DNA of 64,000 nt from Candidatus Heimdallarchaeota archaeon (GTDB lineage Archaea > Asgardarchaeota > Heimdallarchaeia > Heimdallarchaeales > Heimdallarchaeaceae). The stretch covers positions 23,479 through 87,478 of the forward strand of contig JAUWEG010000001.1 of assembly GCA_030608385.1 (NCBI GenBank). The letters run 5' to 3'. Numbering within the stretch: position 1 is the first letter of the stretch; each line of letters starts with the position of its first letter. Below are positions 20,086 to 52,184 of the stretch, piece after piece. Made by a program: the position numbers and the translations under genes. The notes beneath the pieces were generated by a model. That model saw only the letters and a program-made list of their open reading frames with translations. It ran no database searches and was not told where the DNA came from.

Positions 20086-20796
20086 TCATTCTTTTTTGGT
20101 GGTGGTTTTCTTTCTAGCTAATTGTTCTTTGGCAGATGAAACTGGTGTTTTAACTTGTTTTTCCTTAACTGTTGTTGATCTGGATTTAGCTGCTCCTGAT
20201 GGAGTGACTCCAAATATCCTGGAAATTATTGAACCAAAAGCAAAGGCAGTTATGAAATACCAAGTTGAAAAGGGAACTTTTGAGAAGAAACGTCCATTGT
20301 ACTCTTCAAGTCCAAACCAAGGGTTGCTTCCTATCCAGGGAAAATTTCCAATATTGAAAGGCAACCAAGCATAATAATGTGTTACTGGATTTGCTTCTGT
20401 GGGAACACCACTTGGAAAGGCACCTCGTAAAATTGCAAATATTAGCAAGAAAGGAATAGTTGTAAAAAGCATTGGCTTCATTCGTTTAAACATCATAGAG
20501 GATTGCATTTTCTTGATTCTTTCCTCATCCCTTTTTACACTTAACCATAATTTCTTATCTGCAGTTTGCATGGCTTTCTTTCTCCTTTGGTTCCATTCAT
20601 TGACTTTTTGCATACTTTCCTTTAATGCATCAACGTCTGAAACTACTCTGGTGATTGTTGTTGATATAATAGCAAGTAGAACAGAAGTTAATGCAATGAT
20701 CCAAGCCGAAGTAGGTCTTTGATTAAGTCCATGTTCTATCATCCAGTTTGTTAGTCCTTTAAACCAATTGTCCCAGAAAGCCATAACTAAAACCAC
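20086..20796 (-). CDS. DUF106-family membrane protein (Oxa1/EMC3/TMCO1-like insertase homologue)
   Basis: Three TM segments with a coiled-coil between TM1 and TM2 and a basic C-terminal tail. It sits at the conserved archaeal position between secY/adk and cmk. Confidence 0.65.
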   Translation of the reverse strand: MVLVMAFWDNWFKGLTNWMIEHGLNQRPTSAWIIALTSVLLAIISTTITRVVSDVDALKESMQKVNEWNQRRKKAMQTADKKLWLSVKRDEERIKKMQSSMMFKRMKPMLFTTIPFLLIFAILRGAFPSGVPTEANPVTHYYAWLPFNIGNFPWIGSNPWFGLEEYNGRFFSKVPFSTWYFITAFAFGSIISRIFGVTPSGAAKSRSTTVKEKQVKTPVSSAKEQLARKKTTTKKE

Positions 20797-25214: not shown

Positions 25215-26267
25215 ATGGGTGGAATACGAAGATATAAAAAGAAAATTCTAACACCAGGTCATCCTTATGATAAAGATCGAATTGAACGAGAGTTGCCATT
25301 AGTTGGTGAGTATGGATTACGAAACAAGAAAGAATTATGGAAAGCTAGAACTTTATTATCAAAAGCTCGACAACAAGCTCGTGCTCTTCTAGCTCTAACA
25401 CCTGAAATTAGAGAACAAAGAGCAACTGAATTATTATCCCGTTTAACTCGTTTCGGTATGCTTCCCCAAGGTGGGGATCTCGATTCTGTTCTAGCATTGA
25501 ATGTTAAAACAGTACTAAACCGCAGATTACAAACAGTTGTCTTTAGGAAAGGTTTAGCATCTTCTCCCTATCAAGCTAGACAATTTATTACACATAGACA
25601 CATCGCTCTAAATAGTGCGGTAGTTACAGCTCCTGGAATGCTAGTGAAGATAGATGAAGAAGAACATATTGCTTATGCACCAAGTTCTCCTTTAGTTAAA
25701 CAAGATCATCCTTCAAGACCACAAGCACCACCAACTCAAGTTGAAGAACCTCCTAAAAAGAAAGAAATCCCTAAGGGTAGAGGAAAGCCTAAACCTGAAG
25801 TCAAGCCTAAAGTTGAAGTCAAGCCTAAAGTTGAAGTTAAACCTAAACCTGAAGTCAAACCTAAAGTTGAAGTCAAACCTAAAGTTGAAGTCAAACCTAA
25901 ACCTGAAGTCAAACCTAAAGTTGAAGTTAAACCTAAACCTGAAGTCAAGCCTAAACCTGAAGTCAAGCCTAAACCTGAAGTTAAGCCTAAAACAGCACCT
26001 GAAGCTGCACCAAAGGAAAAACCTCTTGTTAAGAAACCTGCAGAGAAAATACCTATTGCACCAAAAGATGATATTTCATCGATTAAAGGTATTGGTGCTA
26101 AAACAGCAATGCTTCTCAAAGAAAATGGTTTCAACACAGTCGATAAAATTGCTAAAGCTACAGTTGAAGATCTTTCCAAAGTCCCAGGTATTGGTCCTGC
26201 TACTGCTGAAGCTATGAACAAAGAGGCTAAGAATTTGTTAGCCAAAAGTAAGGAGGAAGCTAAGTAG
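25215..26267 (+). CDS. rps4: ribosomal protein uS4 fused through an 11-copy PK(P/V)EVK repeat linker to a C-terminal tandem helix-hairpin-helix domain
   Basis: The first roughly 170 aa are canonical S4 (S4 RNA-binding domain, [10 protein letters not shown]). Then come the [12 protein letters not shown] repeats. The C-terminus has IKGIGAKTA ... [12 protein letters not shown] HhH motifs. Confidence 0.8.
25786..25989. repeat. tandem 18-nt repeat (cctaaa[c/g][c/t]tgaagt[c/t]aag), about 11 copies, coding
   Basis: Seen directly in the sequence. It encodes ([12 protein letters not shown])n inside rps4. No spacers are present, so this is not CRISPR. Confidence 0.85.
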
Positions 26268-26275
26268 GTGATTTT

Positions 26276-27031
26276 ATGAGTGAAGATAAAAAAGAGAAGA
26301 AAGAATCGGCTAAGAAAACTAAGGAAGACGTTGAAACTCCCAAAGTAGAAGAGAAAGTTGAAGCTCCTAAGAAAGAGAAGAAAACTTCCACTACTAAGAA
26401 GCAAGAAAAAACCGAACCTCCTAAAGAAGAAAAGAAAGCCGAACCAAAGAAACCCAAAGAGACCAAAGATAAAAAAGCCAAGGATGAAGCTAAACCTAAG
26501 AAAGAAGAAACTGAAGCTCCTAAAAAGGAAAAATCTAAAACCAAAGAAGAAGCTAAACCCGAAGAAAAGGCTAAATCTGAAGAGAAAGCTGAACCCGAAG
26601 CTAAACCTAAACCTGAATCTGAAGCTAGATCTAGAACAAGAAGAAGAGATTCTAAATACGGTGTAGCTCATATCTTTTCCAGTTACAATGATACTATCGT
26701 TCATATCACCGACATTTCAGGTGCTGAAACATTCAGCCGTAAAAGTGGAGGAATGTTTGTTAAAGCAGACAGAAATGAATCAAGTCCATATGCAGCGATG
26801 AAAGCAGCAAACTCAGCAGCACAAGAAGCGCAAAGTAAAGGAATATATCAGCTGTATGTACGTTATAGGGCACCAGGAGGACATAAGAATAGAACACCTG
26901 GACCAGGAACACAAGCAGCATTAAGGGCGCTAAAAAGATCAGGGATGAGAATATTAAGACTAGAAGATGTAACTCCTTTGCCTCATGATGGCTGTAGACG
27001 CAAAGGTGGCCGTAGAGGCCGCAGAATGTAA
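26276..27031 (+). CDS. rps11: ribosomal protein uS11 with a roughly 120 aa Lys/Glu/Pro-rich N-terminal extension
   Basis: The C-terminal 130 aa are canonical S11 ([20 protein letters not shown] ... [10 protein letters not shown]). The N-terminus is a histone-H1-like KKEK/PKKE low-complexity region. Confidence 0.85.
27002..27031 (+). repeat. direct repeat copy 1 (the last 30 nt of rps11 including its stop codon)
   Basis: aaaggtggccgtagaggccgcagaatgtaa. It matches 29354..29383 at 27 of 30 positions. Both copies are followed by T-rich tracts. Confidence 0.7.
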
Positions 27032-27125: not shown

Positions 27126-28307
27126 ATGGCAATAGATGAAAAGAAGAATTTCTCTTGTGAAATTTGTGGTCGTAGCTTTTCAAGAAAAGATGGTTTGTAT
27201 AGACATGTTCGATCAGTTCATTCTGAAACTAAGAAATACAAATGCAAGGATTGCGAGCTCTCTTTTTCTCGTAAAGATACCTTAGATCGTCATGTTAGTG
27301 ATGTTCATAAACAAATACGAAAGCATGTTTGTAATGAATGTGGAGAGAAATTCAAACAACCTGGTGCTCTAAAAAGACATATTCAAACAATGCATGAAAA
27401 AGACGTATTTTATGAGTGTCCACATTGTGATGCAGAGTTTTCTCGAACTGATTCTTTAAACCGTCATATCAATGCAGTTCATCTAAACCTTCGTCCCTAC
27501 ATTTGTAAAGAATGCGGCGCTTCTTTTAAGTTGTCAGGTCATCTTAAGGAGCACATAATATCTGTACATACAAACAAACGAATTCATGTGTGTGAGGAAT
27601 GTGGTTTTGCATTCAAGCTTCGTAGTCAGCTCAAAGATCATATTAGAGTTGTTCATCAAGACTTGCGTCCTCATGTATGTGAAGAATGTGATAAAGAGTT
27701 TCATCATGCAAGAAGTTTGAGGAAACATATAGTATCTGTACATACTGATAATCTTCCATATGTTTGCGAAACCTGTAAGAGGGGTTTTGCCGACCCAAGC
27801 AATCTATATAACCACAAAAAAGCTAATGCTTGCTGGTATACTTCTACTACAGCCTACAAATGGGAGGAATTGTGTAAAGAAATAGCAGAGGTTTTGTTAG
27901 CTGGTTTAGATTGGAAGTGGAAACCTAAGATTGATACTCCTGATATTGAAGAGCAGAGTTGGATTCAACCTGAAATAGTTGTATACTACGAAAATAATAC
28001 AAAAAGAATCATTGATGCTAAGAGATCTACTCTAGCGATATTCAAGGAGAAGGATTTGAAAGTGTATCCAAAAGTGGCTGAGAAGGTGGAGTTTTGGTGT
28101 CTATATGGAAAAGCTGAGGGGATGTTTGAAGAGGAAGAGGAATTTAAAGCAAGAAATAGTGAAGAGATTATTGCTGAGTTAAAGAAGAAGAAATTTGAAG
28201 AGAATCAGAGTTTTGTGGATAACTTGGTAATGAAAATTCAAATGCTGAGAAAAGGATTTGAATTTAAAGAACAAAAAATTCTTGCCAACTTCTCTGAAGA
28301 ACACTAA
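27126..28307 (+). CDS. C2H2 zinc-finger protein with eight tandem fingers plus a roughly 150 aa C-terminal domain
   Basis: Eight C-x2-C-x12-H-x3-5-H units with conserved F/L positions (for example CEICGRSFSRKDGLYRHVRSVH). The last finger is atypical (H ... C). Confidence 0.8.
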   Translation: MAIDEKKNFSCEICGRSFSRKDGLYRHVRSVHSETKKYKCKDCELSFSRKDTLDRHVSDVHKQIRKHVCNECGEKFKQPGALKRHIQTMHEKDVFYECPHCDAEFSRTDSLNRHINAVHLNLRPYICKECGASFKLSGHLKEHIISVHTNKRIHVCEECGFAFKLRSQLKDHIRVVHQDLRPHVCEECDKEFHHARSLRKHIVSVHTDNLPYVCETCKRGFADPSNLYNHKKANACWYTSTTAYKWEELCKEIAEVLLAGLDWKWKPKIDTPDIEEQSWIQPEIVVYYENNTKRIIDAKRSTLAIFKEKDLKVYPKVAEKVEFWCLYGKAEGMFEEEEEFKARNSEEIIAELKKKKFEENQSFVDNLVMKIQMLRKGFEFKEQKILANFSEEH

Positions 28308-37657: not shown

Positions 37658-38383
37658 TTATCTGTATTCTGTGGGATCGTCTATACTTGCTTGAAGAAAA
37701 GCTCTTTTTCTCCTTTGGCAAGACTCACAGGTGCCACAATGTATTGGTTTTCCTTCATTTGTCCATTCCTCTATTTGGTAGCAGGATGATGAAAAAGCCA
37801 TTTTGGCATTGTTTTCAGTAAGAAATACAACTATGTCCTTCTTATCTGAATCATGAAATGGGGCTTGAATTGTAACTTGGTTTAAACACCCTAATTCAAT
37901 TGATTTATTCATCCTATTAACAAAATCTAAGGTATTATCTGGAAATGTGGTTCCTTCTTCCTTATTAGCTCCAAAAATTATATCTGTTGGTACTGTTGAA
38001 CTATCAGCTAAAGAAGCTGCTATTGAAAGAAAGAGAATATTTCTTCCTGGAATCCAAACTTCTTTAGCAGTTTGCAAAGCTAAATCTTTCCTATCTAATT
38101 GTTCAAAGGAGCTAACTTCTGGAGGTTTCTTTTCAGATTTTGTAAGACTAGAACCAGCTTCTTGGGAAAATTCTTCTAGAAAAGGCAAATTGATAATCTT
38201 AGTTTTAACAGAAAGCAAGGAGGAAAACTTTTTGTTGACCTTGATAATGGTTTGATCTTCTTTACTACCATAAAGAAAACTTAGTAGAGTTATTTCATCA
38301 TATTTTTGCATTGTCCAATATAAACATGCGGTGGAATCCATTCCCCCTGAAAACAAGACAATCGCTTTTCGCATATTTTTCAC
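37658..38383 (-). CDS. queC: 7-cyano-7-deazaguanine (preQ0) synthase QueC
   Basis: PP-loop LFSGGMDS. C-terminal zinc cluster CGTCESCQRRKRAF. Confidence 0.85.
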   Translation of the reverse strand: MKNMRKAIVLFSGGMDSTACLYWTMQKYDEITLLSFLYGSKEDQTIIKVNKKFSSLLSVKTKIINLPFLEEFSQEAGSSLTKSEKKPPEVSSFEQLDRKDLALQTAKEVWIPGRNILFLSIAASLADSSTVPTDIIFGANKEEGTTFPDNTLDFVNRMNKSIELGCLNQVTIQAPFHDSDKKDIVVFLTENNAKMAFSSSCYQIEEWTNEGKPIHCGTCESCQRRKRAFLQASIDDPTEYR

Positions 38384-38437
38384 CTGTTATCTACTGATAT
38401 TTCCGTATTATTCACGTATTATTTTCTCTTTAAAATC

Positions 38438-38890
38438 TCATTCTGTATATGTCACAACACTTGTAGGTGTCTCTGCCATTGTAATAGTTATTTTGAATTG
38501 AGGATACTGTTTTTTTATTAGGCTGTGAAAATATTTAGCCAATAGCTCTACAGTGGTTGCTTCTAAAGGGAGCAAAATTACATCCTCTCTTGGAAAACGA
38601 TAATATCTTCCTTCACATGTGTCAACTATGACTTGTTTGTCTGTGGTTGTTATTTTTAAGTCCTTGTTAAAATCGGGAATAAGAACTCTGTGATCAAATT
38701 TTTTTACTATCTTCCCAACAGCTGTTTTGAAGATCCCAAAATCAATCAACATATTATTTTCATCCATTTTTCCTTCAACTTCAACCTCAATATCATAATT
38801 ATGACCATGGAGGCGTGCACATTTATCATGTCTTGTTAACATATGTGCTGAAGCAAAGGTTAATTTGTCACCAGAGATTTTTAATTTCAA
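38438..38890 (-). CDS. queD: 6-carboxy-5,6,7,8-tetrahydropterin synthase QueD (PTPS family)
   Basis: C-x3-HGHNY motif (CARLHGHNYDIE). Size is 150 aa. Confidence 0.85.
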   Translation of the reverse strand: MKLKISGDKLTFASAHMLTRHDKCARLHGHNYDIEVEVEGKMDENNMLIDFGIFKTAVGKIVKKFDHRVLIPDFNKDLKITTTDKQVIVDTCEGRYYRFPREDVILLPLEATTVELLAKYFHSLIKKQYPQFKITITMAETPTSVVTYTE

Positions 38891-38898
38891 ATTATCAC

Positions 38899-39531
38899 CT
38901 ATATTGTTCTAGTTTTTGCAATATCCTCTTTAATTTTGGATATTTCACTTACATATTTCTCAGCTATTTGAATTGCCAAGTTTTGTATTTCTTCTGTTTG
39001 TACTCCAAGATCCGTTAAACCAATAGCTTGAACATGTTCTGGAACTCCTGTGCTAAGGATATTTATTCCAAAGTGGATTTTACTACTTGAAATTCCTACT
39101 GTCGCGATTCCCACGTTTAGTTTTTTTCCATCAACGAAAATATCTGTTCCTTTTCTTTCAATTTGAATATTTTTTTCCTTCAAAATATCGATGACTGTTT
39201 GAGCAAATATCCGGAGTCTGTAATATTCTAATTCCATATTTGGTGGTTGTATATCAAATTCCTCAATTATGAAATGTAGGGAATCATCAGAACTAATTAA
39301 AATATTACTCAAGTGCGATTCTCTGAGAATATCTTTAATATCAACCATTTCCTTTGGAGAAAGCTTCATTCCCCCTCTAAAAACAAGAATACTATCTCCT
39401 ATTATACCATATTTTTCAGCTGTAAAATGACTTGAAAGCTGAGATCCATCATAAATCATTTGATTAGCAAAATCTTCTACAATGATATGATATGGCGGTT
39501 TATTTATTGTCTTCATTTGCTTCCAATCCAT
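38899..39531 (-). CDS. hypothetical protein embedded in the preQ0 cluster (210 aa)
   Basis: Intact ORF whose start overlaps the folE2 stop by 32 nt. No recognisable motif. Confidence 0.4.
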   Translation of the reverse strand: MDWKQMKTINKPPYHIIVEDFANQMIYDGSQLSSHFTAEKYGIIGDSILVFRGGMKLSPKEMVDIKDILRESHLSNILISSDDSLHFIIEEFDIQPPNMELEYYRLRIFAQTVIDILKEKNIQIERKGTDIFVDGKKLNVGIATVGISSSKIHFGINILSTGVPEHVQAIGLTDLGVQTEEIQNLAIQIAEKYVSEISKIKEDIAKTRTI

Positions 39532-40471
39532 TAAGTTGTTCCATCAATTTCTTTAAAGATATTTTAACTTCTGCAACTGCATTATGTTGATGAATGCTTT
39601 CATAGTTAATTTGTTTGACACAAATTAATGTTTCTGGGGGCTGATTTAAGTATTTTTTAGAAACTTTCTGCAAAATCGATCTTACAACATCCTCAACAAA
39701 GGCTGGATGTTGATGTGCATAGAGAACAACAGCTTGCTCATCTTTTCGTTTTAGTACTTCATGTGTAGGTGAGCTCATCGATGTTTCTAGTATTCCAATT
39801 ATATCTTCAAGTTCTATTCTTTCTGCATCTCTTGGTTGCTCAATTACTAAAATTGATTTTGATCTCTGATTATGCGATGCTAAAGGTATGGTTTCAATTA
39901 CGTAATCTATTTGTTCCTCTGTGAACCCCTCTTCTGCAAGTTTTTCCTTAGCAAAATCCCTTGATAGTTCTTGAGAACAGGGACAGACTGTTGTTCCTTC
40001 AACCTCTGCACCAATTATTTTAGTAATCGTAATATTTTCTCCAGTTTTATGCGCAAGAGCTCCAGCTCTTAATTTGTGAACACTGGATTTCTTCCTTCCA
40101 ATGGCTTCTGAATGAGTTTCCATTTCATAATCTGCAACAAGTGTTACTTCAGCATTAGTTGCTCCTGGTTGAATAGAAAGAACCTTTTCTGCAATTTGAG
40201 CACATAATTCTTCACAATCAGAAATAACTTCTCCTGTAAGTGTTGATATAACTTCATTAATAGCTTCTAGATTTCGGGACATGTGAATTCCTCTTTTTGA
40301 AGGCAATAAATCGACATAAACATCTATTTTTGCTGATAATTCATTATATTCACCAAAACGTTTCCTACGAATAATTTTTGGAATATCACTAACTCCTACT
40401 CTCCTAATACCTATCTGTATTTTTGATTCATCTGATTGAACATCTGATAGTTTTTTGCTATTTAGATTCAT
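39500..40471 (-). CDS. folE2: GTP cyclohydrolase FolE2/MptA family (type IB)
   Basis: IQIGIRRVGVSDI ... LLPSKRGIHMSRN pattern of GCH-IB. Size is 323 aa. Confidence 0.75.
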   Translation of the reverse strand: MNLNSKKLSDVQSDESKIQIGIRRVGVSDIPKIIRRKRFGEYNELSAKIDVYVDLLPSKRGIHMSRNLEAINEVISTLTGEVISDCEELCAQIAEKVLSIQPGATNAEVTLVADYEMETHSEAIGRKKSSVHKLRAGALAHKTGENITITKIIGAEVEGTTVCPCSQELSRDFAKEKLAEEGFTEEQIDYVIETIPLASHNQRSKSILVIEQPRDAERIELEDIIGILETSMSSPTHEVLKRKDEQAVVLYAHQHPAFVEDVVRSILQKVSKKYLNQPPETLICVKQINYESIHQHNAVAEVKISLKKLMEQLNGLEANEDNK

Positions 40472-40480
40472 CTTTATTCC

Positions 40481-41290
40481 CTACAAGATTTCTACGGCTT
40501 TGTGCATTTGTATTGAAATCCCTATTTTTTCAGGTGAAAGAAATTTCCCAGCAATTTGAGAGAAATCATTCACTTGCTCCCATGTTGGTTGTTCAACCTT
40601 AGAATTAACTATTGGTGTAACAAATTGGATAACAATGGGAAGATCTATGGATCCACACTTCTTTGCAATAATCTCAAAATTTTCTTTTTTTGAGGCTTTG
40701 GTTATTACAGTTTTTGCAAATACTTTAGTTCCTGCGTTTTTTAGTATCCTACTCATTTCTACTTCCTGATTTACAAGATTCTCCCATTCTAGAGCAGCAT
40801 TCGCTGTTTTATCCTTTATATCTACACATGCAAAATCAATTTTTTCTGATAATTTTTCTAGAAACACAAAATTATCCGTGTATGCTGTTTCTAAATATGT
40901 TTTATATCCTGCTTCTTTGAGAAGGCTAGTAATATCTTCAAAAAATGATTCCTGATACAAGGGCTCTCCCCCTGTCAAACTTACAGAGTGCAAATCCTTA
41001 GTAGAAAGCTTTTTCACAAAATCTAAAATTTCTTCAGGTGTCAAAGGGTTAGATATTTCTTCAAAGGATTGAGTTCCTGCTTGTGTTTCCACAAGACATT
41101 TTGATGGAGTTGTACTCCAAGATTTCGGAGAATCACACCAGATACAACCTTTTGTTCCATGAACACCTAAAGCAAGAGGACATCCTGAGAATCTGATGAA
41201 AATCTGTCTTAATCCATAACAGCTTCCTTCAACTGCTGCTCCTTCACCTTGGAAACTTGAGAATATTTCCTGTACGTAACCCTGTGACAT
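40481..41290 (-). CDS. queE: 7-carboxy-7-deazaguanine synthase QueE (radical SAM)
   Basis: EIFSSFQGEG and FIRFSGC signatures of QueE. Confidence 0.8.
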   Translation of the reverse strand: MSQGYVQEIFSSFQGEGAAVEGSCYGLRQIFIRFSGCPLALGVHGTKGCIWCDSPKSWSTTPSKCLVETQAGTQSFEEISNPLTPEEILDFVKKLSTKDLHSVSLTGGEPLYQESFFEDITSLLKEAGYKTYLETAYTDNFVFLEKLSEKIDFACVDIKDKTANAALEWENLVNQEVEMSRILKNAGTKVFAKTVITKASKKENFEIIAKKCGSIDLPIVIQFVTPIVNSKVEQPTWEQVNDFSQIAGKFLSPEKIGISIQMHKAVEIL

Positions 41291-41369: not shown

Positions 41370-41837
41370 CTATAAATTGTACTTACCTATCTGATCAAAT
41401 GTAGCATATTTTTCTACATATTCTCGAACTTTTCTAGCATATTCTTTAGGGTCTCTTTTCATCAGATTAGCAGCTGTTGAATTTAAAGGGTCATCAGGAT
41501 TTGGATTACTTAAAATGAAGCGAATTGATTCTATAACATCAACTAGATTGTTCGCTGGGGTCCAATCTGCGCCTAGAACCCCTACACATATTCTTGTATC
41601 AAATACATTAGCATGAAAAACCTTTGTTAGCATTTTTACCTTTGGAGGTTTGAATGGATATTCTCTCGGAATATCGATATCAAGTACAAAAACACCATTT
41701 TCATATAAACCTGCTCCAAAAATAAATCCCCTCCATTGAAGTGTATTTCCGTCTATTGGTTTGAATGTTGGCAATTCTTTTTTTAACTCATTGGCTTCGA
41801 TTGCTATTCTAGGCCAAAATTCTTCTTCTGCTAACAT
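41370..41837 (-). CDS. ubiquitin-conjugating enzyme E2 (UBC fold, catalytic Cys retained)
   Basis: FHANVFDTRICVGVLGADWTPA aligns to the E2 HPN-x-G-x-IC-LDIL-x-W-SPA active-site block. Size is 155 aa. Confidence 0.75.
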   Translation of the reverse strand: MLAEEEFWPRIAIEANELKKELPTFKPIDGNTLQWRGFIFGAGLYENGVFVLDIDIPREYPFKPPKVKMLTKVFHANVFDTRICVGVLGADWTPANNLVDVIESIRFILSNPNPDDPLNSTAANLMKRDPKEYARKVREYVEKYATFDQIGKYNL

Positions 41838-41877
41838 TGCTTCATATCCAGTATGTTTTTTTAAGGATGGTTGTAAC

Positions 41878-42041
41878 TAGTATCCTCCTGAACCTTTGTT
41901 CTGCATCTCTAGAAGTATCATGAGTATGGCTGCAATTAATCCTTTTTGATCTCCTGCAATTTTCTCAAATTCTTTTCTTTCTAACATCATTGCAACAGAA
42001 CGCCATCTAACTAGTAATTCCACGATGTCTCTTTCGCTCAT
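41878..42041 (-). CDS. unannotated mini-ORF (54 aa) ending in GSGG-Y, immediately upstream of the E2 gene
   Basis: My own translation of the minus strand gives MSERDIVELLVRWRSVAMMLERKEFEKIAGDQKGLIAAILMILLEMQNKGSGGY. The gap to the E2 start is 40 nt. Coding status is unproven. Confidence 0.25.
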
Positions 42042-42192
42042 TAGCCTTCATCTATGAAAAGTTTGCTAGATATATTAAGATTATGTCTCTCCTAAATGAA
42101 ATTTGATTCAGCTAATAAATGAAACTAGTTTTTGATTACGCCTAATCCACAAATTTTTTTAATTTGATAACAATTACTATATGTGAATATGT

Positions 42193-42879
42193 ATGAGTAA
42201 CCCAGAGGAAATGTTAGTTCAACTAATTAACTCAATCAATAAGCTTTCAACTCTTGTTCAAAATGTAAATGATGCGATTTCTAAACTATCTACTCAAATT
42301 ACGCAATTAGAAACAAAGATGACGGGTTTTTCTAATGTTGAAAATCAAGTTTCTGAGGTAGGTCTTAAACTCAGTGAGATTCCTGGAATTAAAGATATGA
42401 TCGCAAACCTAAACACTAAGATTGATGGGTTGGGATCTATTGCTGTTGCAGCTCCTGCAAAATCCAAAGGCAAAGCCAAGAAAGGATCTGCCCCTGCAGT
42501 TGCAGTACCCGCTGAACCAGCTCCAGTAGAATATACTTCTCCAGGTATAGCTGAAGAAGATGATGGAGCAGGAGTTTCAGCTGAAGCTGATGCAGCTTTT
42601 AATGCTGTTTCCAAGAAATTTAAACATATAACACAAATGGTTAGCCCTACTAGTAGTTGTGGGAACATATCAAAGATGATCGAAGATTTAAGGGATGAAG
42701 TCGAAACTCATGTCGGAATGTCACCAATGTTATATGAACTAAACTCTTGGGTTCAAAGAGTTTCAAAAATGCCTGAAGCAGATGTACTTCTTCCTGAAGT
42801 CCATTCTGAATTAATTGGTAAACTAGATGATTGGTTAACAAGAGTGACCAAAGCAATTCACTTAAAATATCAAGATTAA
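42193..42879 (+). CDS. coiled-coil protein with an Ala/Pro-rich linker and a helical C-terminal domain
   Basis: N-terminal heptad-rich 80 aa, then an AAPAKSKGKAKKGSAPAVAVPAEPAP linker, then a roughly 100 aa helical domain. Confidence 0.4.
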   Translation: MSNPEEMLVQLINSINKLSTLVQNVNDAISKLSTQITQLETKMTGFSNVENQVSEVGLKLSEIPGIKDMIANLNTKIDGLGSIAVAAPAKSKGKAKKGSAPAVAVPAEPAPVEYTSPGIAEEDDGAGVSAEADAAFNAVSKKFKHITQMVSPTSSCGNISKMIEDLRDEVETHVGMSPMLYELNSWVQRVSKMPEADVLLPEVHSELIGKLDDWLTRVTKAIHLKYQD

Positions 42880-42966
42880 TGGGTGTTTTATTAATATAGT
42901 AATACCCCCGTCCATATTGATATAATACTTATTTTTTAACTTGTTAAACTAAATTATGTACATGTT

Positions 42967-43605
42967 ATGATGAATCTAGGTGATATTAAGGGCATCATAG
43001 AGATAAACGGTGAGTCTTATGATCCAAAAGAGGTTCTTAGAGCTCTTCTTGAACAAGGTTTGAAAATCCATCCTTTAAATGGTTCCTTACTAATTGGACG
43101 AACTTTTATTGATCCTGCCCCAAATCTTGAATTTAGGAGCAAATCCTGTCCAATATCTACCCACTGTAAGATTTTTGAAAAACTGAACTTGTCAAAAGAA
43201 GAAACAACAGATTCTTCATTAACTTCATATGACCCTGACTTTGATTCACAATCACCTTCTAGTCCATCGCAATCTCCCCCTAACAGATCTTATACTGATC
43301 CAGTTCAGATGGATATTGATAATATGGATACCCAAAGTTTTTTTTCAGAATCATCCATTGAAGAGACAGTTTTACCATATGATGAACCTCAGAATAGTTC
43401 AGTTCTAAGGACCAACATAATCGATAATTTAGAACCTGAACCTGCTGAAATGATGGGAGTGTCTCCTGTAACAAAATATGGTGAATCGATGAACATAGAT
43501 GTTTCTCACATACCGTTAGAATACAAGGGAAGATGTCCTTATTGCAAATCTGTTGTTAATATGAAATGGAAGTTTTGTGGAACTTGTGGCACTCATATGC
43601 AATAA
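42967..43605 (+). CDS. protein with a ubiquitin-like-looking N-terminal domain, a Ser/Pro-rich linker and a C-terminal Cys4 zinc ribbon
   Basis: N-terminus roughly 60 aa (GESYDPKEVLRALLEQGLKIHPLNGSLLIGRTF) parallels the ubiquitin [41 protein letters not shown] segment. C-terminus CPYC-x11-CGTC. Confidence 0.35.
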   Translation: MMNLGDIKGIIEINGESYDPKEVLRALLEQGLKIHPLNGSLLIGRTFIDPAPNLEFRSKSCPISTHCKIFEKLNLSKEETTDSSLTSYDPDFDSQSPSSPSQSPPNRSYTDPVQMDIDNMDTQSFFSESSIEETVLPYDEPQNSSVLRTNIIDNLEPEPAEMMGVSPVTKYGESMNIDVSHIPLEYKGRCPYCKSVVNMKWKFCGTCGTHMQ

Positions 43606-43613
43606 ATTAAAGG

Positions 43614-44981
43614 TTAGTCTGAACCCTCTACGTCAACACAACCTTCTGGTGTTATTGCAAATACAGCTTCTGATTCTGGTAAATATGGTGAGTCATAAAT
43701 TCTAATAATTCTCTTCTCGCCTTTGGATTTTCTTAAATAGAATCTAGTTATAGCCCAGTGACCAAGGATATTTCCACCAATCGCTTGAGTTGGATCACCA
43801 AAAAAGGCTGCGGGATTTGACTGAACCTGGTTTGTGATTGCAATAGCTACATTATAGGTGTCTGCTAATCTTCCAAGAATCCCTAAATGATGGTTGATTG
43901 TTTGTTGTCTCTCAGCAAGAGTTCCTCTTCCCGCATATTCTGCTCTAAAATGAGCTGTAGCAGAATCAAGAGCAACAAGCCCATATTCATCCTTGTGGTT
44001 GTAAAACAATTCAAGTAGTCTTTCTACTAGAGTCATTTGATGATCTGAGTTATACGCTCTTGCGTAAGTTATGTCTCTAAGAACATCCTCAAAACTTTTC
44101 TCCCAACCTAAATCATTTTGTAATTTACCATGAATTGCTTTAATTCTACTAGGAGAAAATGTTCCCTCAGTATCTATAAATACAGCTTTCTTTCCAACTC
44201 CTCCTAATTCTGGTGGAAGTTGAACAGTTACACAAAGCTGGTGGCATAATTGTGACTTTCCAGAGCGGAAAGGTCCAAAAAGTTCTATAGTCTCTCCAAG
44301 CCTCACTCCAGCAACATCTAATTCCTCAATAGTTGTTAACGCATCTAATGCTTTAATCCCATAAGAAAAAGCTGGAGACCCCTTCTGTTTTTCCATTATC
44401 TCAAAACCGTTAATGAACTCAATTCCTCCACGTGCCTCAGTAAGAGCTTGCTTGTATTTTTTTGCAGCACTTGCTGTAATCCCATACTTTTCTTCTAATT
44501 CTCTTATAGGAGTTGTTTCAAGAAGATAAACGTTTAATCCCTTCTCTCTTAGCATATCTGCGGTAGTTTTTCCTACTCCAGGTAAATCTTCTAAACCGAT
44601 TTCTTCTTTGAAAAACCTATACTTTTGTACTGTAGAAATTATTTCTCCCCTAATTTTCTTTGCAATAGCTCTTTGGACACCCATTGTCTGTAATTCAATA
44701 AGCCTTGTCGTCATTAATTTTTCAATAGTTGTGATTTCATTCTCAATTAAAATTTCCAGGGTTTTCTTTCCTAAACCTGGAACATCTTTAAGTTTCAGCT
44801 CAACATCTGCTTTTTTCTTCTTAGAATTCTCTTGTTCTTCTATCTCAATTAGATGTTCTTCGTATTGTTCTCCAATTTCCTTTGAATCAGGCTTAGTGGT
44901 TTCTTCCTGTGTTTCTTTGCTCATATTATGCACCACTGCTATTACTCCGAAGAGGTTAGAGTATTTAAAGATAATACTCAT
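43614..44981 (-). CDS. radA: DNA repair/recombination protein RadA with a duplicated N-terminal HhH module
   Basis: Walker A GPFRSGKSQ and Walker B AVFIDTEG. Two consecutive (V/L)PG(L/V)GKxT HhH units. The true start is possibly the internal Met (MSKETQ). Confidence 0.9.
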   Translation of the reverse strand: MSIIFKYSNLFGVIAVVHNMSKETQEETTKPDSKEIGEQYEEHLIEIEEQENSKKKKADVELKLKDVPGLGKKTLEILIENEITTIEKLMTTRLIELQTMGVQRAIAKKIRGEIISTVQKYRFFKEEIGLEDLPGVGKTTADMLREKGLNVYLLETTPIRELEEKYGITASAAKKYKQALTEARGGIEFINGFEIMEKQKGSPAFSYGIKALDALTTIEELDVAGVRLGETIELFGPFRSGKSQLCHQLCVTVQLPPELGGVGKKAVFIDTEGTFSPSRIKAIHGKLQNDLGWEKSFEDVLRDITYARAYNSDHQMTLVERLLELFYNHKDEYGLVALDSATAHFRAEYAGRGTLAERQQTINHHLGILGRLADTYNVAIAITNQVQSNPAAFFGDPTQAIGGNILGHWAITRFYLRKSKGEKRIIRIYDSPYLPESEAVFAITPEGCVDVEGSD

Positions 44982-45711: not shown

Positions 45712-46161
45712 TTATTCTTGTTCAAGATTAGTTTCGTTGTTTTTACGTTTCTTTTCTTCTTTTTCCCTTATTTGCCTATTCTTTTCTTCTTCTAAATGCT
45801 TTAACCCTTTATCTTTCAATTTTCCAGTTCCGCTACAAACTGGACAAACATCTTTTCTAGCTTCTCTTTTTGGTCCAGCATCTACATATCCCGTTCCGTA
45901 ACAATAAGGGCAATTTGTCCCTATAACCTTAGCACCTGTTCTTGCATAAATATACGATAATAGTAGAAACAAAACACCTAATCCAGCAGTGATGAAACCT
46001 GCTATTTCTAGTCCTCTCGCATCAATTCCGCTCTCTTCAAAAACAGCAATAGCTTTATCATACATATATAATCCAACAATAAGCAGAATACCACCAAATA
46101 GAAAGATGGAATACTGGATAACATAGATTCTTATATTCGAAACTCTTCTTTTCCCTTTCAT
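45712..46161 (-). CDS. two-TM membrane protein with a DnaJ-type CxxCxGxG zinc finger
   Basis: CPYCYGTGYV ... CPVCSGTGKL. The C-terminal tail is K/E-rich. Confidence 0.45.
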   Translation of the reverse strand: MKGKRRVSNIRIYVIQYSIFLFGGILLIVGLYMYDKAIAVFEESGIDARGLEIAGFITAGLGVLFLLLSYIYARTGAKVIGTNCPYCYGTGYVDAGPKREARKDVCPVCSGTGKLKDKGLKHLEEEKNRQIREKEEKKRKNNETNLEQE

Positions 46162-46255: not shown

Positions 46256-46807
46256 TTATCTTCCTGCTCGTTTCATAGTTTCATTTTTTATTGCATTTCC
46301 TAGAAGAGCTTTAACTAATTCTCCTATTCCGGCTCCAGTTAATGCTGATGTTTCAAGATATCTACAGCCTAGTTTTCTAGATATTCTTTCTGCATCCCCT
46401 CTTAAAACTTCACGTTTTGCATCAGTTTTATTGCCAACAATTGTAATATCCAAATCAAGATTTTGATTTCTAAGTTCTCTAATCCAATCTGCACACTCTT
46501 TGAATGATTCTCTCCTAGATACATCAAAGATGATTGCTGCAGCATTGGTTCCTGAATATAGGAGATTCCTAACTACTCCAAATCTTTTTTGTCCTGCCAT
46601 GTCGTAAAACAGTGCTACCGCTTTTCCTTTGCCAGTTTTAAATGAATAAGTATGGAATTCAGCCCCTACAGTTGGCTTATAATGTTTTAGAAAAATATTT
46701 TCTGTTATCCTTTTGCAAATTGTTGTTTTTCCCGATCTACCGGGTCCACATATGGCTAACTTGTATATATCGTAATCTCGAAATTTAACTTCCACTTTGG
46801 AATTCAT
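46256..46807 (-). CDS. Ras-superfamily small GTPase (Rab/Ras-like)
   Basis: G1 GPGRSGKT, G3 DMAGQ (Ras-type catalytic Gln), G4 GNKTD, G5 TSAL. Size is 183 aa. Confidence 0.8.
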   Translation of the reverse strand: MNSKVEVKFRDYDIYKLAICGPGRSGKTTICKRITENIFLKHYKPTVGAEFHTYSFKTGKGKAVALFYDMAGQKRFGVVRNLLYSGTNAAAIIFDVSRRESFKECADWIRELRNQNLDLDITIVGNKTDAKREVLRGDAERISRKLGCRYLETSALTGAGIGELVKALLGNAIKNETMKRAGR

Positions 46808-49349: not shown

Positions 49350-52184
49350 TTAACTAAACCAAGAATCAAGTGATTTTTGTCCTTCAATTGATTCTACCCA
49401 GGAAATACCTATGGTATCCAGAAGTTGTATTAAAGTAGATTTAAGTAGTTCTTTAACTTTAGGTATATCTACATCTGATTTTTCAGCCAATTGAATAGGT
49501 TTTACAGAGCATTCTTTGCTTTGGCTAATTTGATCTGAAAGCTTAATGGATTGAGCTTGAATCTTAAATGGTTTAGTTTTGATAAAACTAATCAAAGATC
49601 CTACAGTTGGTTTTTCACCATCAGGAAATGCTAACATAAGTTGAACTGCAGCTTGTAAAGGTTGAGTCCAACTATCATATTGCTCGATTTTCTTAGATAG
49701 AGTTACACTAATTGCTAGATCTTCAAGTTCAAAATTCCTTTTAGATATTTTTTGGTTAACAGCTTGTGTTATTCTTATTATCTTCTTCTTAGTTTCTTCT
49801 AATTCTTCCGGGGTTTGAACATCTGTTAAAATTTCTAATGATTTTTCAAATGGTCTTTTTGCTAAAATTGGCGTATTCTTCTTCCTACCCATCAAACCCT
49901 TTACTATTGGATATCCTTCAGTTGTGATTCCAAAGTAGTTTTTCTTTCTATCCGAAAGTCCACAATAACGGAATACATAATCGGTCCCTAATTCTATCTG
50001 AAAGGTTTCCATGCTCCATTTTTCCAATTCCTCGATGTTTTCGGGGGTTGGTTTGTGTATGAAAATACTATCTGTATCCCCATACAAAACCTGCAATCCT
50101 AATTTCTCTTCGCTATATTTCTTTGTTTTAGAAATTGCTTCTCGAGCAAGAGCCGCAGTTGACTCTGCCACAGGAGGGCAATACAAAGCAAAATTATCTG
50201 AACCAAAAACACCATAGGAGGCGTTAAGTAGTACTTTTAGAGAAGATTGTATGACATCACTAAGTTTTCTTTCTTCTTCGCTTAACGATGGATCTTTTGC
50301 TCTGTCTTTAAACCAGTAAACTCTGATATCCCTTATGAATCCAATTAGCATGGAACTTATACCCACATGCTTTTCACATATCCAGTGACTGGTTTCTGGT
50401 ATTTTGTTCTTCTTGCACTCAATATGATTACAATTCAAAGTTTCATACGATAGATTTCTAGTTTTTATGATGGAAGGATAGAGACTAGCAAAATCCATTA
50501 CATGAACATCCCACCATACACCAACTTGTGGATCTATTACAATTGCCCCTTGATACTTCTTTCCTTTAATGATGGCTTCAGTTGAAGTACCTCCCTTTAA
50601 TTGAAGAATATCCTCTCTCCTTGGGATTAAATAATTTCGGAATCTGTGTTCAAAATACATCCAATTCTGGATCCATATACTAATACTTGCTCGAGTAAAA
50701 TCATCTATTGGCATTTTTGTAATTCGAGAAAGCATTACTATTAAGTTAATTACTTGATCATTATTGAAACTGGTTAATTCAAAGGTTATTTCAGAATCTC
50801 TTCCATTGTATTCGATAAGTTCCTCCAAATCCAAGTCCCAAATATCTTTTTCATGTTTAAGTTTCTCCTTGCCTAGAATTGTTTTTCCAAGTTCATCAAG
50901 GGTTATTCTATCATAAACACCTCCAAATGCATAAATTCGAATGGCGGGTTGTCTAAAAAATCTATATAAATCGAGATGTATAGAGTGGGAAAGGAAAACG
51001 TTTTGAAATCTTGTTCGTACAAATGGATTCATCTTTTCATCAATTTCAAGTTTTTTCGCTCTATTATCTAGATACAAGAAATCAAAACCATCCCCATTAA
51101 ATGTAATAACGATAGGATATTTGCTCATTTCATCAAAAACTGCTAGAAGCAACTCTTTCTCATCATCAAACTCTTTAACCTTTACTGAAATTTTGCTTTG
51201 ATCTATTTGCTTTTTTTCTTCATTAAGCACAAAAACAGTGGTTTCTCTCTCTTCATTTGTTAAGCCTATTGAGATTACTTTCTGTAGGGCAGCATGAGGA
51301 TCAGGAATCTTGTTTTTTTCACTCTCAACTTCTATATCCACTGAACACCTGCTTATTTTAGGAATAGGGGCAAAGAATATGGGAAGATACTGCTCCACTA
51401 ATTGCAAAACTTCATGAGATTGTCCTTTAAAAATATCAAGTAAGTTGTCTTTAACTTCATTGGGTATTTTAGGTTCCACTCTTTGTAGTTTGTTGTTTTT
51501 AACTTCATAGAACAACCCAGGGACTAGTCCATTGTCATAGATATAATTCAAATGATATCTAATGTTAGCCTCAAAAGAGGGGCTGATTTTTTCCCTATAA
51601 CTATTATCTCTCCCCCCAATTGCTAGCGGATTTGTTGCAATTACCTTTGTTAGAGTTAATTCTTTTTCATTAAGTAGACTATATTTCTTAATAACCTCAC
51701 AACCGATAAACTCTTTTTCATTTGCAAGTTTTTTTTCTACTTCAGCTTTACTTACTGTAGTGAGCAAATATGGCAGGTGGTTTGTTGTATCATACCATCT
51801 GAAAACTTTACCTTGTTCTGGGTTGAACAGTTTTACATATGCCTTCTCTTTTTTACCATCATATTTTACATCAATAAGATAGGAAGAGGATAGATTTTCG
51901 GGAGCAAGATGAACATAACTGCTTCCCTTTTCTTCAAAGGATACCCCTTTCGATTTGTTAGCTGGTTTTTTATTTGTGTTTAGAAAAGCTCCTTTAGTTG
52001 AAGTTGATTCTTTATTGTCTCTTATGTTGATCTTTGAACTCAAATTTCCTTCTTTCTTTTTATCAGAATCTGCTTTGTTTGAATCTTGAATAAAACTCAT
52101 TAGACTTTTATGAGAATTTTTATTATCATTTTTCACGATAGATCTACCCATTCTTCTATTTTGATGCTCATCTCTAAATTGCAC
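49350..52184 (-). CDS. polB: family B DNA polymerase (PolB) with an N-terminal low-complexity extension and a C-terminal PIP box
   Basis: Pol motif A DFASLYPSII and motif C YGDTDSIF. Exonuclease blocks are present. The last residues QKSLDSWFS match the PIP-box Q-x2-L-x2-W-F. The first roughly 100 aa are K/S/N-rich. Confidence 0.9.
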   Translation of the reverse strand: MQFRDEHQNRRMGRSIVKNDNKNSHKSLMSFIQDSNKADSDKKKEGNLSSKINIRDNKESTSTKGAFLNTNKKPANKSKGVSFEEKGSSYVHLAPENLSSSYLIDVKYDGKKEKAYVKLFNPEQGKVFRWYDTTNHLPYLLTTVSKAEVEKKLANEKEFIGCEVIKKYSLLNEKELTLTKVIATNPLAIGGRDNSYREKISPSFEANIRYHLNYIYDNGLVPGLFYEVKNNKLQRVEPKIPNEVKDNLLDIFKGQSHEVLQLVEQYLPIFFAPIPKISRCSVDIEVESEKNKIPDPHAALQKVISIGLTNEERETTVFVLNEEKKQIDQSKISVKVKEFDDEKELLLAVFDEMSKYPIVITFNGDGFDFLYLDNRAKKLEIDEKMNPFVRTRFQNVFLSHSIHLDLYRFFRQPAIRIYAFGGVYDRITLDELGKTILGKEKLKHEKDIWDLDLEELIEYNGRDSEITFELTSFNNDQVINLIVMLSRITKMPIDDFTRASISIWIQNWMYFEHRFRNYLIPRREDILQLKGGTSTEAIIKGKKYQGAIVIDPQVGVWWDVHVMDFASLYPSIIKTRNLSYETLNCNHIECKKNKIPETSHWICEKHVGISSMLIGFIRDIRVYWFKDRAKDPSLSEEERKLSDVIQSSLKVLLNASYGVFGSDNFALYCPPVAESTAALAREAISKTKKYSEEKLGLQVLYGDTDSIFIHKPTPENIEELEKWSMETFQIELGTDYVFRYCGLSDRKKNYFGITTEGYPIVKGLMGRKKNTPILAKRPFEKSLEILTDVQTPEELEETKKKIIRITQAVNQKISKRNFELEDLAISVTLSKKIEQYDSWTQPLQAAVQLMLAFPDGEKPTVGSLISFIKTKPFKIQAQSIKLSDQISQSKECSVKPIQLAEKSDVDIPKVKELLKSTLIQLLDTIGISWVESIEGQKSLDSWFS

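What the first reader, a model, noticed from the sequence alone, without database searches (positions are those of the whole stretch)
41370..43605. E2 ubiquitin-conjugating enzyme with three unusual neighbours: candidate ubiquitin-like modification module
Three observations make a compact, previously unannotated-looking module. First, a bona fide UBC-fold E2 retains the catalytic Cys (RICVGVL) in a prokaryote. Second, a 40-nt-upstream mini-ORF ends in GG plus one residue. Third, a divergently oriented protein pairs an N-terminal region resembling the ubiquitin beta-grasp core with a C-terminal Cys4 zinc ribbon. No E1, RING or JAMM gene is visible in the window, so the partners are either elsewhere or non-canonical.
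Basis: partly seen in the sequence, partly recalled or inferred. Interest (0 to 1): 0.8.

Follow-up and report, generated by a model that had tools for sequence, protein, structure and literature searches.

The report
Asgard E2 enzyme with helical partner
The region holds an ordinary, already described ubiquitin-conjugating (E2) enzyme of a Heimdall-type Asgard archaeon; its neighbours are not ubiquitin-like proteins, but the tiny gene beside it is a real, undescribed two-helix protein that stays next to this E2 across distant relatives.

Summary
The E2 is real. 41370..41837(-) matches Pfam UQ_con at 3.5e-34 and human UbcH5b at 7e-28. Its His, Asn and catalytic Cys are invariant in 54 orthologs, with the HPN proline replaced by Ala only in this clade. 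The window comes from a Heimdallarchaeaceae (Asgard) genome. E2s of this lineage, and its true ubiquitin encoded elsewhere, are already published.

- **Mini-ORF (54 aa):** the model is two helices (pLDDT 85). The GG+1 ending occurs in only 14 of 29 related genomes and is absent in six.
- **228-aa protein:** a coiled-coil orphan.

The window contains no E1, ubiquitin, RING or JAMM gene.

One new result emerged. The mini-ORF is a gene under purifying selection and founds a narrow Heimdallarchaeia-only family of 7 genuine clusters among 1.84 billion representatives. It lies within about 1 kb of this E2, directly adjacent in all but one locus, in every informative locus examined, across four clades and through inversions and neighbour turnover. 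I infer that it is an E2 accessory partner; this is untested.

The parts
41370..41837 (-). Class-I UBE2D-like ubiquitin-conjugating enzyme (E2), 155 aa, with H75-A76-N77 and catalytic Cys84
   Evidence: Pfam UQ_con E=3.5e-34. Matches UbcH5b at 7e-28 with Cys and HxN aligned. H75, N77, C84 and L88 are invariant in 54 orthologs. Homologs are annotated as Heimdallarchaeaceae E2.
41838..41876 (-). 39-nt spacer between the mini-ORF stop and the E2 start. It contains an A/T-rich TATA-like element (TTAAAAAAA, 41864..41856) about 23 nt upstream of the E2 ATG.
   Evidence: Sequence read directly. That it acts as a promoter is inference only.
41877..42041 (-). Small two-helix protein (54 aa), founding member of a Heimdallarchaeia-only family linked to the E2. 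The core is W13...F25..AG..KG[LIV]IAA; the GSGGY tail is variable.
   Evidence: 53 homologs, all labelled hypothetical. AF2 model has H3-20 and H23-50, pLDDT 85. Codon-position differences are 3434:734:7676. Only 7 genuine clusters in 1.84e9 representatives. Within about 1 kb of the E2 in all informative loci, directly adjacent in all but L010.
42193..42879 (+). 228-aa orphan: N-terminal coiled coil, A/P/E-rich disordered linker with an EEYxSPG motif, and a conserved C-terminal helical domain (FKHITQM...VGMSPMLYELNSW...DDWL). Always flanks the mini gene on the side away from the E2 in Heimdallarchaeaceae.
   Evidence: Orthologs collected and aligned. Only coiled-coil matches in Pfam, PDB and NCBIfam. 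Synteny limited to Heimdallarchaeaceae.
42967..43605 (+). 212-aa orphan: a small N-terminal domain, then two invariant Cys (C61, C67) just after it, then about 110 disordered residues, then a C-terminal Cys4 zinc ribbon
   Evidence: Alignment of 42 homologs. AF2 mean pLDDT 47, with residues 46-176 disordered. Family found only in Heimdallarchaeaceae-type contigs.
42997..43101 (+). Predicted b-b-a-b-b element (residues 11-45) of the 212-aa protein, the supposed 'beta-grasp core'
43525..43590 (+). C-x2-C-x10-C-x2-C zinc ribbon (residues 187-208)
   Evidence: Invariant C190/C193/C204/C207, W201 and G208. Pfam DZR E=1.3e-5, matched by 42/42 members. Local, non-significant superposition on NZF/RanBP2 fingers.
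43614..44981 (-). RadA/Rad51 recombinase with N-terminal HhH repeats. It is a flanking gene, convergent with the 212-aa gene, and not part of the module.
   Evidence: Pfam Rad51 E=1.5e-75. Syntenic in Heimdallarchaeaceae only.
37658..41290 (-). Downstream same-strand cluster QueE-like radical SAM, GCHY-1 (FolE2/MptA type), DUF366, PTPS/QueD and QueC (preQ0/archaeosine precursor genes). It is a flanking cluster with no shown link to the E2.
   Evidence: Pfam hits. Absent next to the E2 in the other clades examined, except PTPS and GCHY-1 on the opposite strand in L056.

Best explanation
The region encodes a canonical UBE2D-like ubiquitin-conjugating enzyme of a Heimdallarchaeaceae (Asgard) archaeon. 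It most likely accepts the lineage's genuine ubiquitin from an E1 encoded elsewhere in the genome, as a thioester on Cys84. None of the three neighbours is a ubiquitin-like modifier.

The 54-aa upstream gene encodes a small helix-loop-helix protein. It probably pairs into a four-helix bundle, because the same unit occurs as a tandem duplication (about 88 aa) in other clades. It is the only neighbour that stays next to this E2 across Heimdallarchaeia. I infer that it is a non-catalytic accessory subunit that binds the E2 and modulates its activity, partner choice or localisation. Functionally this would resemble the free-standing or embedded E2-binding helices of eukaryotes (Cue1 U7BR, gp78 G2BR).

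The 228-aa coiled-coil protein and the 212-aa zinc-ribbon protein are family-specific orphans. Their link to the E2 rests only on synteny within one family.

Shown: E2 identity and catalytic residues; helical fold of the mini protein; non-conservation of the GG ending; purifying selection; conserved proximity to the E2. Inferred: physical binding, any effect on E2 activity, and any role for the other two proteins.
For: **E2**
- Pfam UQ_con 3.5e-34; UbcH5b 7e-28 with catalytic Cys and HxN aligned.
- H, N and C are invariant in 54 orthologs.
- The same lineage (AB_125; its E2 is 95% identical) has published E2s with catalytic Cys and a biochemically studied ubiquitin, HeimAB125_14240, elsewhere in the genome (PMC9192718).
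- The orthologous E2 of Heimdall LC_3 sits beside a ThiF-family E1-like gene.

**Mini protein**
- Two helices, pLDDT 85.
- 53 homologs, all from contigs labelled Heimdall/Asgard or unlabelled, apart from one 'Zixibacteria' and two 'Thorarchaeota' source labels. Only 7 genuine clusters in 1.84e9 representatives.
- Third-position-biased substitutions, 3434:734:7676.
- Directly adjacent to the E2 in 29/29 GTDB species genomes of Heimdallarchaeaceae, in 9/9 informative metagenome loci carrying the tandem form, and in L007, L008/L009 and L056. In L010 it is one gene away.
- The pairing survives inversion of the mini gene alone (L007), inversion of a three-gene block (L038/L039), and complete turnover of all other neighbours.
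Against:
- No E2-mini fusion was found among 68 E2 homologs.
- Two clades of orthologous E2 lack the mini gene. They carry other divergent neighbours instead: a 138-aa gene plus ThiF in LC_3, and a ~125-aa plus ~1050-aa pair in L055/L057/L058. The partner is therefore dispensable or replaceable.
- The mini protein has no detectable similarity to any known E2-binding element.
- A TATA-like element inside the 39-nt spacer suggests the E2 may be transcribed on its own.
- Many of the Heimdallarchaeaceae loci are close relatives, so the number of independent observations is nearer 4-6 lineages than about 50 loci.
Confidence: 0.55

Rival explanations
1. One reading: the mini-ORF (processed at GG|Y) and/or the N-terminal domain of the 212-aa protein are non-canonical ubiquitin-like modifiers charged onto the adjacent E2. 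Together they would form a compact modification module.
For: The mini-ORF ends in GSGGY, and a GG+aromatic ending occurs in 14 of 29 related genomes. The 212-aa N-terminus is predicted as b-b-a-b-b, the order of the first elements of a beta-grasp.
Against: - The mini protein is all-helical with a disordered tail.
- The tail reads GVY or RGY in 9 genomes and is absent in 6 of 29. It is also absent from all tandem-form homologs, which end in K-rich tails.
- The lineage has a true ubiquitin elsewhere.
- The 212-aa gene is not linked to the E2 outside one family.
Confidence: 0.03
2. Hitch-hiking: the mini gene is an independent small protein with an unrelated role, and its position next to the E2 is inherited gene order without functional coupling. 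The E2 works alone with distant partners.
For: No binding data exist. The E2 may have its own promoter. Two E2 clades lack the mini gene. MetRS also lies nearby in two clades, showing that some local synteny persists without an obvious functional reason.
Against: The pairing persists where every other neighbour has changed. It also persists through at least two kinds of inversion whose breakpoints fall immediately around the pair. No mini-family member was found away from this E2 in any informative locus.
Confidence: 0.25
3. Regulator model: the mini protein controls expression or stability of the E2, for example as a small dimeric DNA/RNA-binding or anti-E2 inhibitor protein sharing a bidirectional promoter. 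It would not act as a cofactor in catalysis.
For: The divergent arrangement, with a 250-590 bp shared intergenic region, is the commonest and probably ancestral layout. The inferred dimeric or tandem architecture is typical of small regulators.
Against: There is no helix-turn-helix, ribbon-helix-helix or other nucleic-acid-binding signature in Pfam, NCBIfam or PDB searches. Helix 2 is strongly hydrophobic, which suits a buried protein interface. No conserved operator was looked for.
Confidence: 0.15

Closest known systems
Eukaryotic UBE2D/UbcH5 family and the published Asgard E2s (Heimdallarchaeota AB_125 HeimAB125_07740 / _09840; Hatano et al. 2022, PMC9192718)
   Same: UBC fold, catalytic Cys, His and Asn of the HPN motif, F in the PFKPP loop and the PNPDDPL motif. 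About 40% identity to eukaryotic E2 D. The AB_125 contig carries a 95% identical ortholog.
   Different: The HPN proline is Ala in this clade only (4 of 54). I did not confirm which AB_125 locus tag is the ortholog. Activity has not been tested.
Operon-type archaeal ubiquitin system (Caldiarchaeum subterraneum Ub-E1-E2-RING-Rpn11; Hennell James et al. 2017, PMC5654768) and the Odinarchaeum Ub-ESCRT cluster
   Same: A eukaryote-like E2 in an archaeon, presumably fed by a ThiF-type E1. The LC_3 ortholog is adjacent to ThiF.
   Different: No Ub, E1, RING or JAMM gene within 64 kb here. The E2 is a stand-alone gene between unrelated housekeeping clusters.
E2-binding helical cofactors of eukaryotes (Cue1 U7BR for Ubc7, gp78 G2BR for Ube2g2, AO7 U5BR for UbcH5); from general knowledge
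   Same: Proposed working analogy only: a short helical, non-catalytic polypeptide of about 30-50 residues dedicated to one E2.
   Different: No sequence or fold similarity was detected. The protein here is free-standing, probably dimeric or tandem, and binding is untested. It is not a member of any of these families.
Prokaryotic small modifiers with GG-type ends (Pup GGQ/GGE; SAMP, ThiS and MoaD GG)
   Same: Small size and a Gly-Gly near the C-terminus in the window's copy.
   Different: The tail is not conserved. The fold is helical and not a beta-grasp. Nothing in the Pfam scans of the window resembled a PafA/Dop ligase, and no ThiF gene is nearby. Pup uses no E2.
Generic archaeal/bacterial zinc ribbons (Pfam DZR, Zn_Ribbon_1, Zn_ribbon_3) and eukaryotic NZF/RanBP2 fingers
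   Same: C-x2-C-x10-C-x2-C spacing. Local superposition on TRABID NZF1 and Nup153 fingers at 0.8-1.1 A over 25-26 residues.
   Different: The Foldseek E-values are non-significant (>0.9). The W-x-C and T-F ubiquitin-binding signature of NZF is absent from 'GRCPYCKSVVNMKWKFCGTCG' (read; the motif is recalled from memory). It is not a RING, having four Cys ligands and no cross-brace.

Membership tests
UBC / E2 ubiquitin-conjugating enzymes | UBC core domain recognised above the curated threshold | tested here: met
   Pfam PF00179 scores 117.8 bits against a cut-off of 27, covering profile positions 11-139 of 140.
UBC / E2 ubiquitin-conjugating enzymes | Catalytic Cys at the position of UbcH5b Cys85 | tested here: met
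   C84 aligns with the catalytic Cys of UbcH5b and is invariant in 54 orthologs.
UBC / E2 ubiquitin-conjugating enzymes | HPN motif upstream of the Cys | tested here: met
   H75 and N77 are invariant. The Pro is Ala in the window and 3 close relatives, and Pro in the other 50. The catalytically important Asn is retained.
UBC / E2 ubiquitin-conjugating enzymes | E1-dependent thioester with ubiquitin | not testable with these tools
   Needs biochemistry with the lineage's E1 and ubiquitin.
Ubiquitin-like modifier (mini-ORF 41877..42041) | Beta-grasp fold | tested here: not met
   The AF2 model built from a 20-sequence alignment has two helices (3-20, 23-50), pLDDT 85 and no strand.
Ubiquitin-like modifier (mini-ORF 41877..42041) | Conserved C-terminal Gly-Gly at the processing or conjugation site | tested here: not met
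   GG+1 occurs in 14/29 genomes, GVY or RGY in 9, and no tail in 6. Tandem-form homologs end in K-rich tails.
Ubiquitin-like domain (212-aa protein N-terminus) | Beta-grasp fold recognisable by structure comparison | tested here: not met
Ubiquitin-like domain (212-aa protein N-terminus) | Sequence-profile match to ubiquitin, ThiS, MoaD or Urm1 families | tested here: not met
   No such Pfam family is hit by any of 42 members at E<=1. hhalign probability is 0.1%, but that test had no power because the Ub-versus-ThiS control also failed.
Zinc ribbon (212-aa protein C-terminus) | Four Cys in a C-x2-C-x(n)-C-x2-C arrangement, conserved | tested here: met
   C190, C193, C204 and C207 are invariant in 42 sequences. 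Pfam DZR is matched by 42/42 members, although the window copy scores 25.7 bits, just under the 27.3 cut-off.
RING / U-box E3 | Eight-ligand cross-brace (C3HC4 or similar) or U-box fold in a neighbour | tested here: not met
   No RING or U-box Pfam hit in the three neighbours or the other window ORFs scanned. One unrelated p27-like protein at 375..794 gave a sub-threshold Prok-RING_1 hit (16.3 bits against a cut-off of 29.1).
Operon-type archaeal ubiquitin system (Caldiarchaeum type) | Ub, E1, E2, RING and JAMM genes co-located | tested here: not met
   Only the E2 is present in the 64-kb window.
Known E2-binding cofactor families (CUE/U7BR, UEV, UBA) | Sequence or fold match of the mini protein to one of these domains | tested here: not met
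   No Pfam hit in 24 tandem members. No PDB sequence hit of relevance. Foldseek against PDB returned 0 hits.

The most novel reading that the evidence does not exclude
The 49-57-aa protein, and its ~88-aa tandem form, is a previously unrecognised dedicated subunit of one Heimdallarchaeial E2. It would be a minimal four-helix-bundle cofactor that binds the E2, for example on its backside or N-terminal helix, and either tunes ubiquitin transfer or substitutes for an E3-like adaptor. That would make it an archaeal forerunner or analogue of the E2-activating helices seen in eukaryotic ERAD E3 complexes. In Heimdallarchaeaceae, the 228-aa coiled-coil and 212-aa zinc-ribbon proteins would then be lineage-specific clients or scaffolds of that E2 complex.
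Probability: 0.3. Interest if true: 0.6.

Novelty: new member of a known kind. Interest (0 to 1): 0.35.

Why it matters
The E2 adds nothing new. Asgard ubiquitin machinery has been known since 2015-2017, and this lineage's E2s were modelled in 2022.

What could matter is the small helical protein. It is one of the few genes tied by conserved gene order to a specific E2 in the archaeal group currently placed closest to eukaryotes. It has no annotation and no detectable relatives elsewhere. If it binds and regulates the E2, it would give a simple, two-protein, experimentally tractable handle on how E2 specificity or activation was organised before RING/HECT E3 diversity arose.

If it does not bind, the locus is an ordinary stand-alone E2 among housekeeping genes.

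Tried and rejected
- **Mini-ORF as a UBL or Pup-like modifier.** Rejected on fold and on the non-conserved tail.
- **212-aa zinc ribbon as a ubiquitin-binding NZF or a RING.** Only non-significant local superpositions were found. The NZF signature is absent and there are too few ligands for a RING.
- **Mini protein as a membrane anchor for the E2 (Cue1/Pex22-like).** The hydrophobic stretch is only about 13 residues, and the maximum Kyte-Doolittle value over 19 residues is 1.43. Rejected as a transmembrane helix.
- **E2-mini fusion proteins as Rosetta-stone evidence.** None among the longer E2 homologs; the extensions look like miscalled starts or unrelated tails.
- **Distant homologs of the 228-aa and 212-aa proteins beside E2 in other clades.** Only coiled-coil noise.
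- **Known families for the 228-aa protein.** Only coiled-coil matches in Pfam, PDB and NCBIfam.
- **Eukaryotic or wider relatives of the mini family.** Of 8 clusters found, one is a spurious repeat protein.
- **Literature search for a described E2-linked small protein in Asgard.** Nothing found.
Full report
**Where the window comes from**

The window has about 34% G+C. It carries a ribosomal-protein operon, SecY, family-B DNA polymerase, RadA, a Ras-family GTPase and an EMC3-like protein. The exact E2 protein is found on many metagenomic contigs. Where its homologs are named, they are 'ubiquitin-conjugating enzyme [Candidatus Heimdallarchaeaceae archaeon]'. The contig of Heimdallarchaeota AB_125 carries a 95% identical E2 in the same gene order. 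The host is therefore a Heimdall-type Asgard archaeon, a group in which eukaryote-like ubiquitin genes are expected.

**The observation**

- E2 at 41370..41837(-);
- a 54-aa ORF at 41877..42041(-), 39 nt upstream and ending GSGGY;
- a 228-aa ORF at 42193..42879(+);
- a 212-aa ORF at 42967..43605(+).

The E2 matches Pfam UQ_con at 3.5e-34 and human UbcH5b at 7e-28. 'HAN' aligns with HPN, Cys84 aligns with the catalytic Cys85, and PNPDDPL is conserved. Among 54 orthologs, H75, N77, C84 and L88 are invariant. The middle residue of HPN is Pro in 50 and Ala only in the window's closest relatives. Pfam scans of the remaining unidentified ORFs of the window found no ThiF/E1, ubiquitin, RING or JAB/JAMM domain. 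These parts of the observation hold.

**The mini-ORF is real but is not a ubiquitin-like protein**

A profile search returned 53 homologs, all 'hypothetical' and essentially all from Heimdall-type contigs. Two forms exist: a single unit of 49-57 aa in Heimdallarchaeaceae, and a tandem duplication of the same unit (about 88-98 aa) elsewhere.

Among 29 orthologous genes, differences fall 3434:734:7676 on codon positions 1:2:3. This is the signature of a translated gene under purifying selection.

AlphaFold2 with a 20-sequence alignment gives two helices (3-20 and 23-50) at mean pLDDT 85, with the last residues disordered. The prolines in the loop of the tandem form suggest a helix, a roughly 12-residue loop with a conserved Phe, then a hydrophobic helix.

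The GG+1 ending is a clade-specific tail. In 29 species-level genomes, 14 end GG[YF], 6 end GVY, 3 end RGY and 6 have no tail. All tandem forms end in K-rich tails.

There is no Pfam, NCBIfam or PDB relative. An exhaustive HMMER scan of 1.84 billion representatives found only 8 clusters, one of them a spurious repeat protein. The hydrophobic helix is too short for a membrane span.

**The mini gene is tied to the E2**

Scanning species-representative genomes with the mini family returned 29 Heimdallarchaeaceae loci. All carry RadA, the 212-aa gene, the 228-aa gene, mini, E2 and QueE together where the locus is complete. Within that family the pair survives two kinds of rearrangement:
- in L007 the mini gene alone is inverted;
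- in Ca. Heimdallarchaeum aukensis and H. endolithica the block of 228-aa gene, mini and E2 is inverted.

Outside the family, every other neighbour is replaced, yet a mini-family gene remains beside the E2:
- divergently adjacent in L008/L009, where the E2 is 63% identical;
- divergently adjacent in 9 of 9 informative metagenome loci found with the tandem family (two further loci are cut at the contig edge and two are spurious);
- one gene away on the same strand in a Hodarchaeales contig, E2 54% identical;
- 585 bp upstream and divergent in L056, E2 53% identical.

I found no mini-family member away from this E2.

Conversely, two clades of the E2 orthogroup lack it:
- Heimdall LC_3, where the E2 is divergent from a 138-aa unknown plus a ThiF-family E1-like gene;
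- the L055/L057/L058 group, where the E2 is divergent from a ~125-aa coiled-coil gene and a ~1050-aa unknown.

No E2-mini fusion was seen.

**The 212-aa protein**

Forty-six homologs were found, all about 200-217 aa where full-length and all Heimdallarchaeaceae-type. The alignment shows three regions:
- a conserved N-terminal ~70 residues, with two invariant Cys (C61, C67) just after the predicted fold;
- a fast-evolving linker;
- an invariant C-x2-C-x10-C-x2-C ribbon.

AF2 gives mean pLDDT 47. Residues 11-45 form b-b-a-b-b at pLDDT 60-77, residues 46-176 are disordered, and the ribbon sits at about pLDDT 70.

The domain is also internal, so it could not serve as a conjugatable modifier without processing. 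The beta-grasp reading is unsupported. The zinc ribbon is confirmed but generic.

**The 228-aa protein**

Orthologs from the fetched loci show an N-terminal coiled coil of variable length (one ortholog is 340 aa), an acidic/Pro-rich linker with a conserved EEYxSPG, and a well conserved ~95-residue C-terminal helical domain. Only coiled-coil matches appear in Pfam, PDB and NCBIfam. It always flanks the mini gene within Heimdallarchaeaceae. It has no detectable counterpart next to the E2 in other clades.

**What is known**

Hatano et al. 2022 (PMC9192718) list four E2-like proteins in Heimdall AB_125. Two have catalytic Cys (HeimAB125_07740, _09840). The paper models them with AlphaFold2 and works biochemically with that lineage's ubiquitin, HeimAB125_14240. 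The E2 here is therefore a member of an already described set, and its likely modifier is a canonical ubiquitin encoded elsewhere. I did not verify which locus tag is the ortholog. Two literature searches found no description of an E2-linked small helical protein in Asgard archaea.

**Interpretation**

- Firm: this is a canonical, probably active UBE2D-like E2 standing alone between RadA and a preQ0/archaeosine-precursor gene cluster.
- Firm: neither candidate neighbour is a ubiquitin-like protein.
- New, and resting only on comparative genomics: a narrow, unannotated family of helix-loop-helix proteins is kept beside this E2 across at least four Heimdallarchaeial clades.

The most economical reading is a dedicated non-catalytic partner of the E2. 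It would act as a homodimer or tandem pseudo-dimer forming a small helical bundle. By analogy it would work like the E2-binding helices of eukaryotic cofactors, without being a member of those families.

The alternatives are inherited gene order without coupling, or a small regulator sharing a bidirectional promoter. The A/T-rich element 23 nt upstream of the E2 start suggests the E2 can be transcribed on its own in the window's lineage. That fits any of these readings.

**Verdict**

The finding as proposed, a ubiquitin-like modification module, is not supported, and the E2 is already known. The residual interest lies in the conserved E2-mini pair, which is cheap to test. I score overall interest at 0.35.

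Noticed in passing
window 27126..28307 (+): A 393-aa protein with eight eukaryote-style C2H2 zinc fingers in tandem (Pfam zf-C2H2 E=5.8e-44, 8 stretches). Arrays of classical C2H2 fingers are unusual outside eukaryotes.
   Followed up: no
L053 1..2144 (Heimdall LC_3, MDVS01000004.1): The orthologous E2 (54% identical) lies divergently next to a 138-aa unknown gene and a ThiF-family E1-like gene (Pfam ThiF E=3e-59). A 175-aa protein with an N-terminal zinc ribbon is convergent to it. No mini-family gene is present.
   Followed up: partly
L055 1254..5408; L057 1023..5474; L058 763..5465: In another clade, the E2 ortholog is divergently paired with a conserved two-gene unit: a ~125-aa coiled-coil protein and a ~1040-1075-aa protein with no Pfam domain. 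L058 also has a second E2 paralog in tandem. This could be an alternative E2 partner set.
   Followed up: partly
window 41613..41615 (codon 76 of the E2): The Pro of the canonical HPN motif is replaced by Ala only in the window and its three closest relatives among 54 orthologs. The functional consequence is unknown.
   Followed up: partly
window 41877..41891 (tail of the mini-ORF) and L011..L033: In the 23 genomes whose mini protein has the short C-terminal tail, the last residue is always aromatic (Y or F), whereas the supposed GG varies. The conserved terminal aromatic is unexplained.
   Followed up: partly
window 25215..26267 (+), 26276..27031 (+), 8047..9000 (-): Ribosomal proteins that look, by eye from the translations, like S4, S11 and S3 carry long lysine-rich low-complexity additions. 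These include a [10 protein letters not shown]-type repeat plus a C-terminal HhH-like segment in the S4-like protein. Judged by reading only; no domain search was run.
   Followed up: no
L001 782..2725 and 4676..6544; L002/L003 1..2469 versus window 49350..52184: Strain-level differences in otherwise colinear contigs. L001 has an extra 647-aa gene with a faint TnpB/Cas12f-like hit and an extra 622-aa gene. The family-B DNA polymerase is 1268-1296 aa with a faint LAGLIDADG hit in L002/L003, but 944 aa in the window, L004 and L005. This suggests an intein present in some strains only.
   Followed up: no
window 45712..46161 (-): A 149-aa predicted membrane protein with a DnaJ-type CxxCxGxG double zinc-finger segment (weak Pfam DnaJ_CXXCXGXG, E=1e-3), conserved next to CobO and the Ras-like GTPase in related contigs.
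   Followed up: no
window 46256..46807 (-) and 20086..20796 (-): A Ras-family small GTPase (Pfam Ras E=1e-33) and an EMC3/TMCO1-like membrane protein (E=1e-17). Both are eukaryote-signature-type genes typical of Asgard genomes.
   Followed up: no
L008 3223..5713; L010 2142..5182: Methionyl-tRNA synthetase lies next to the tandem mini gene in two different clades, in different orientations. This may be residual synteny or a further link; it was not examined.
   Followed up: no
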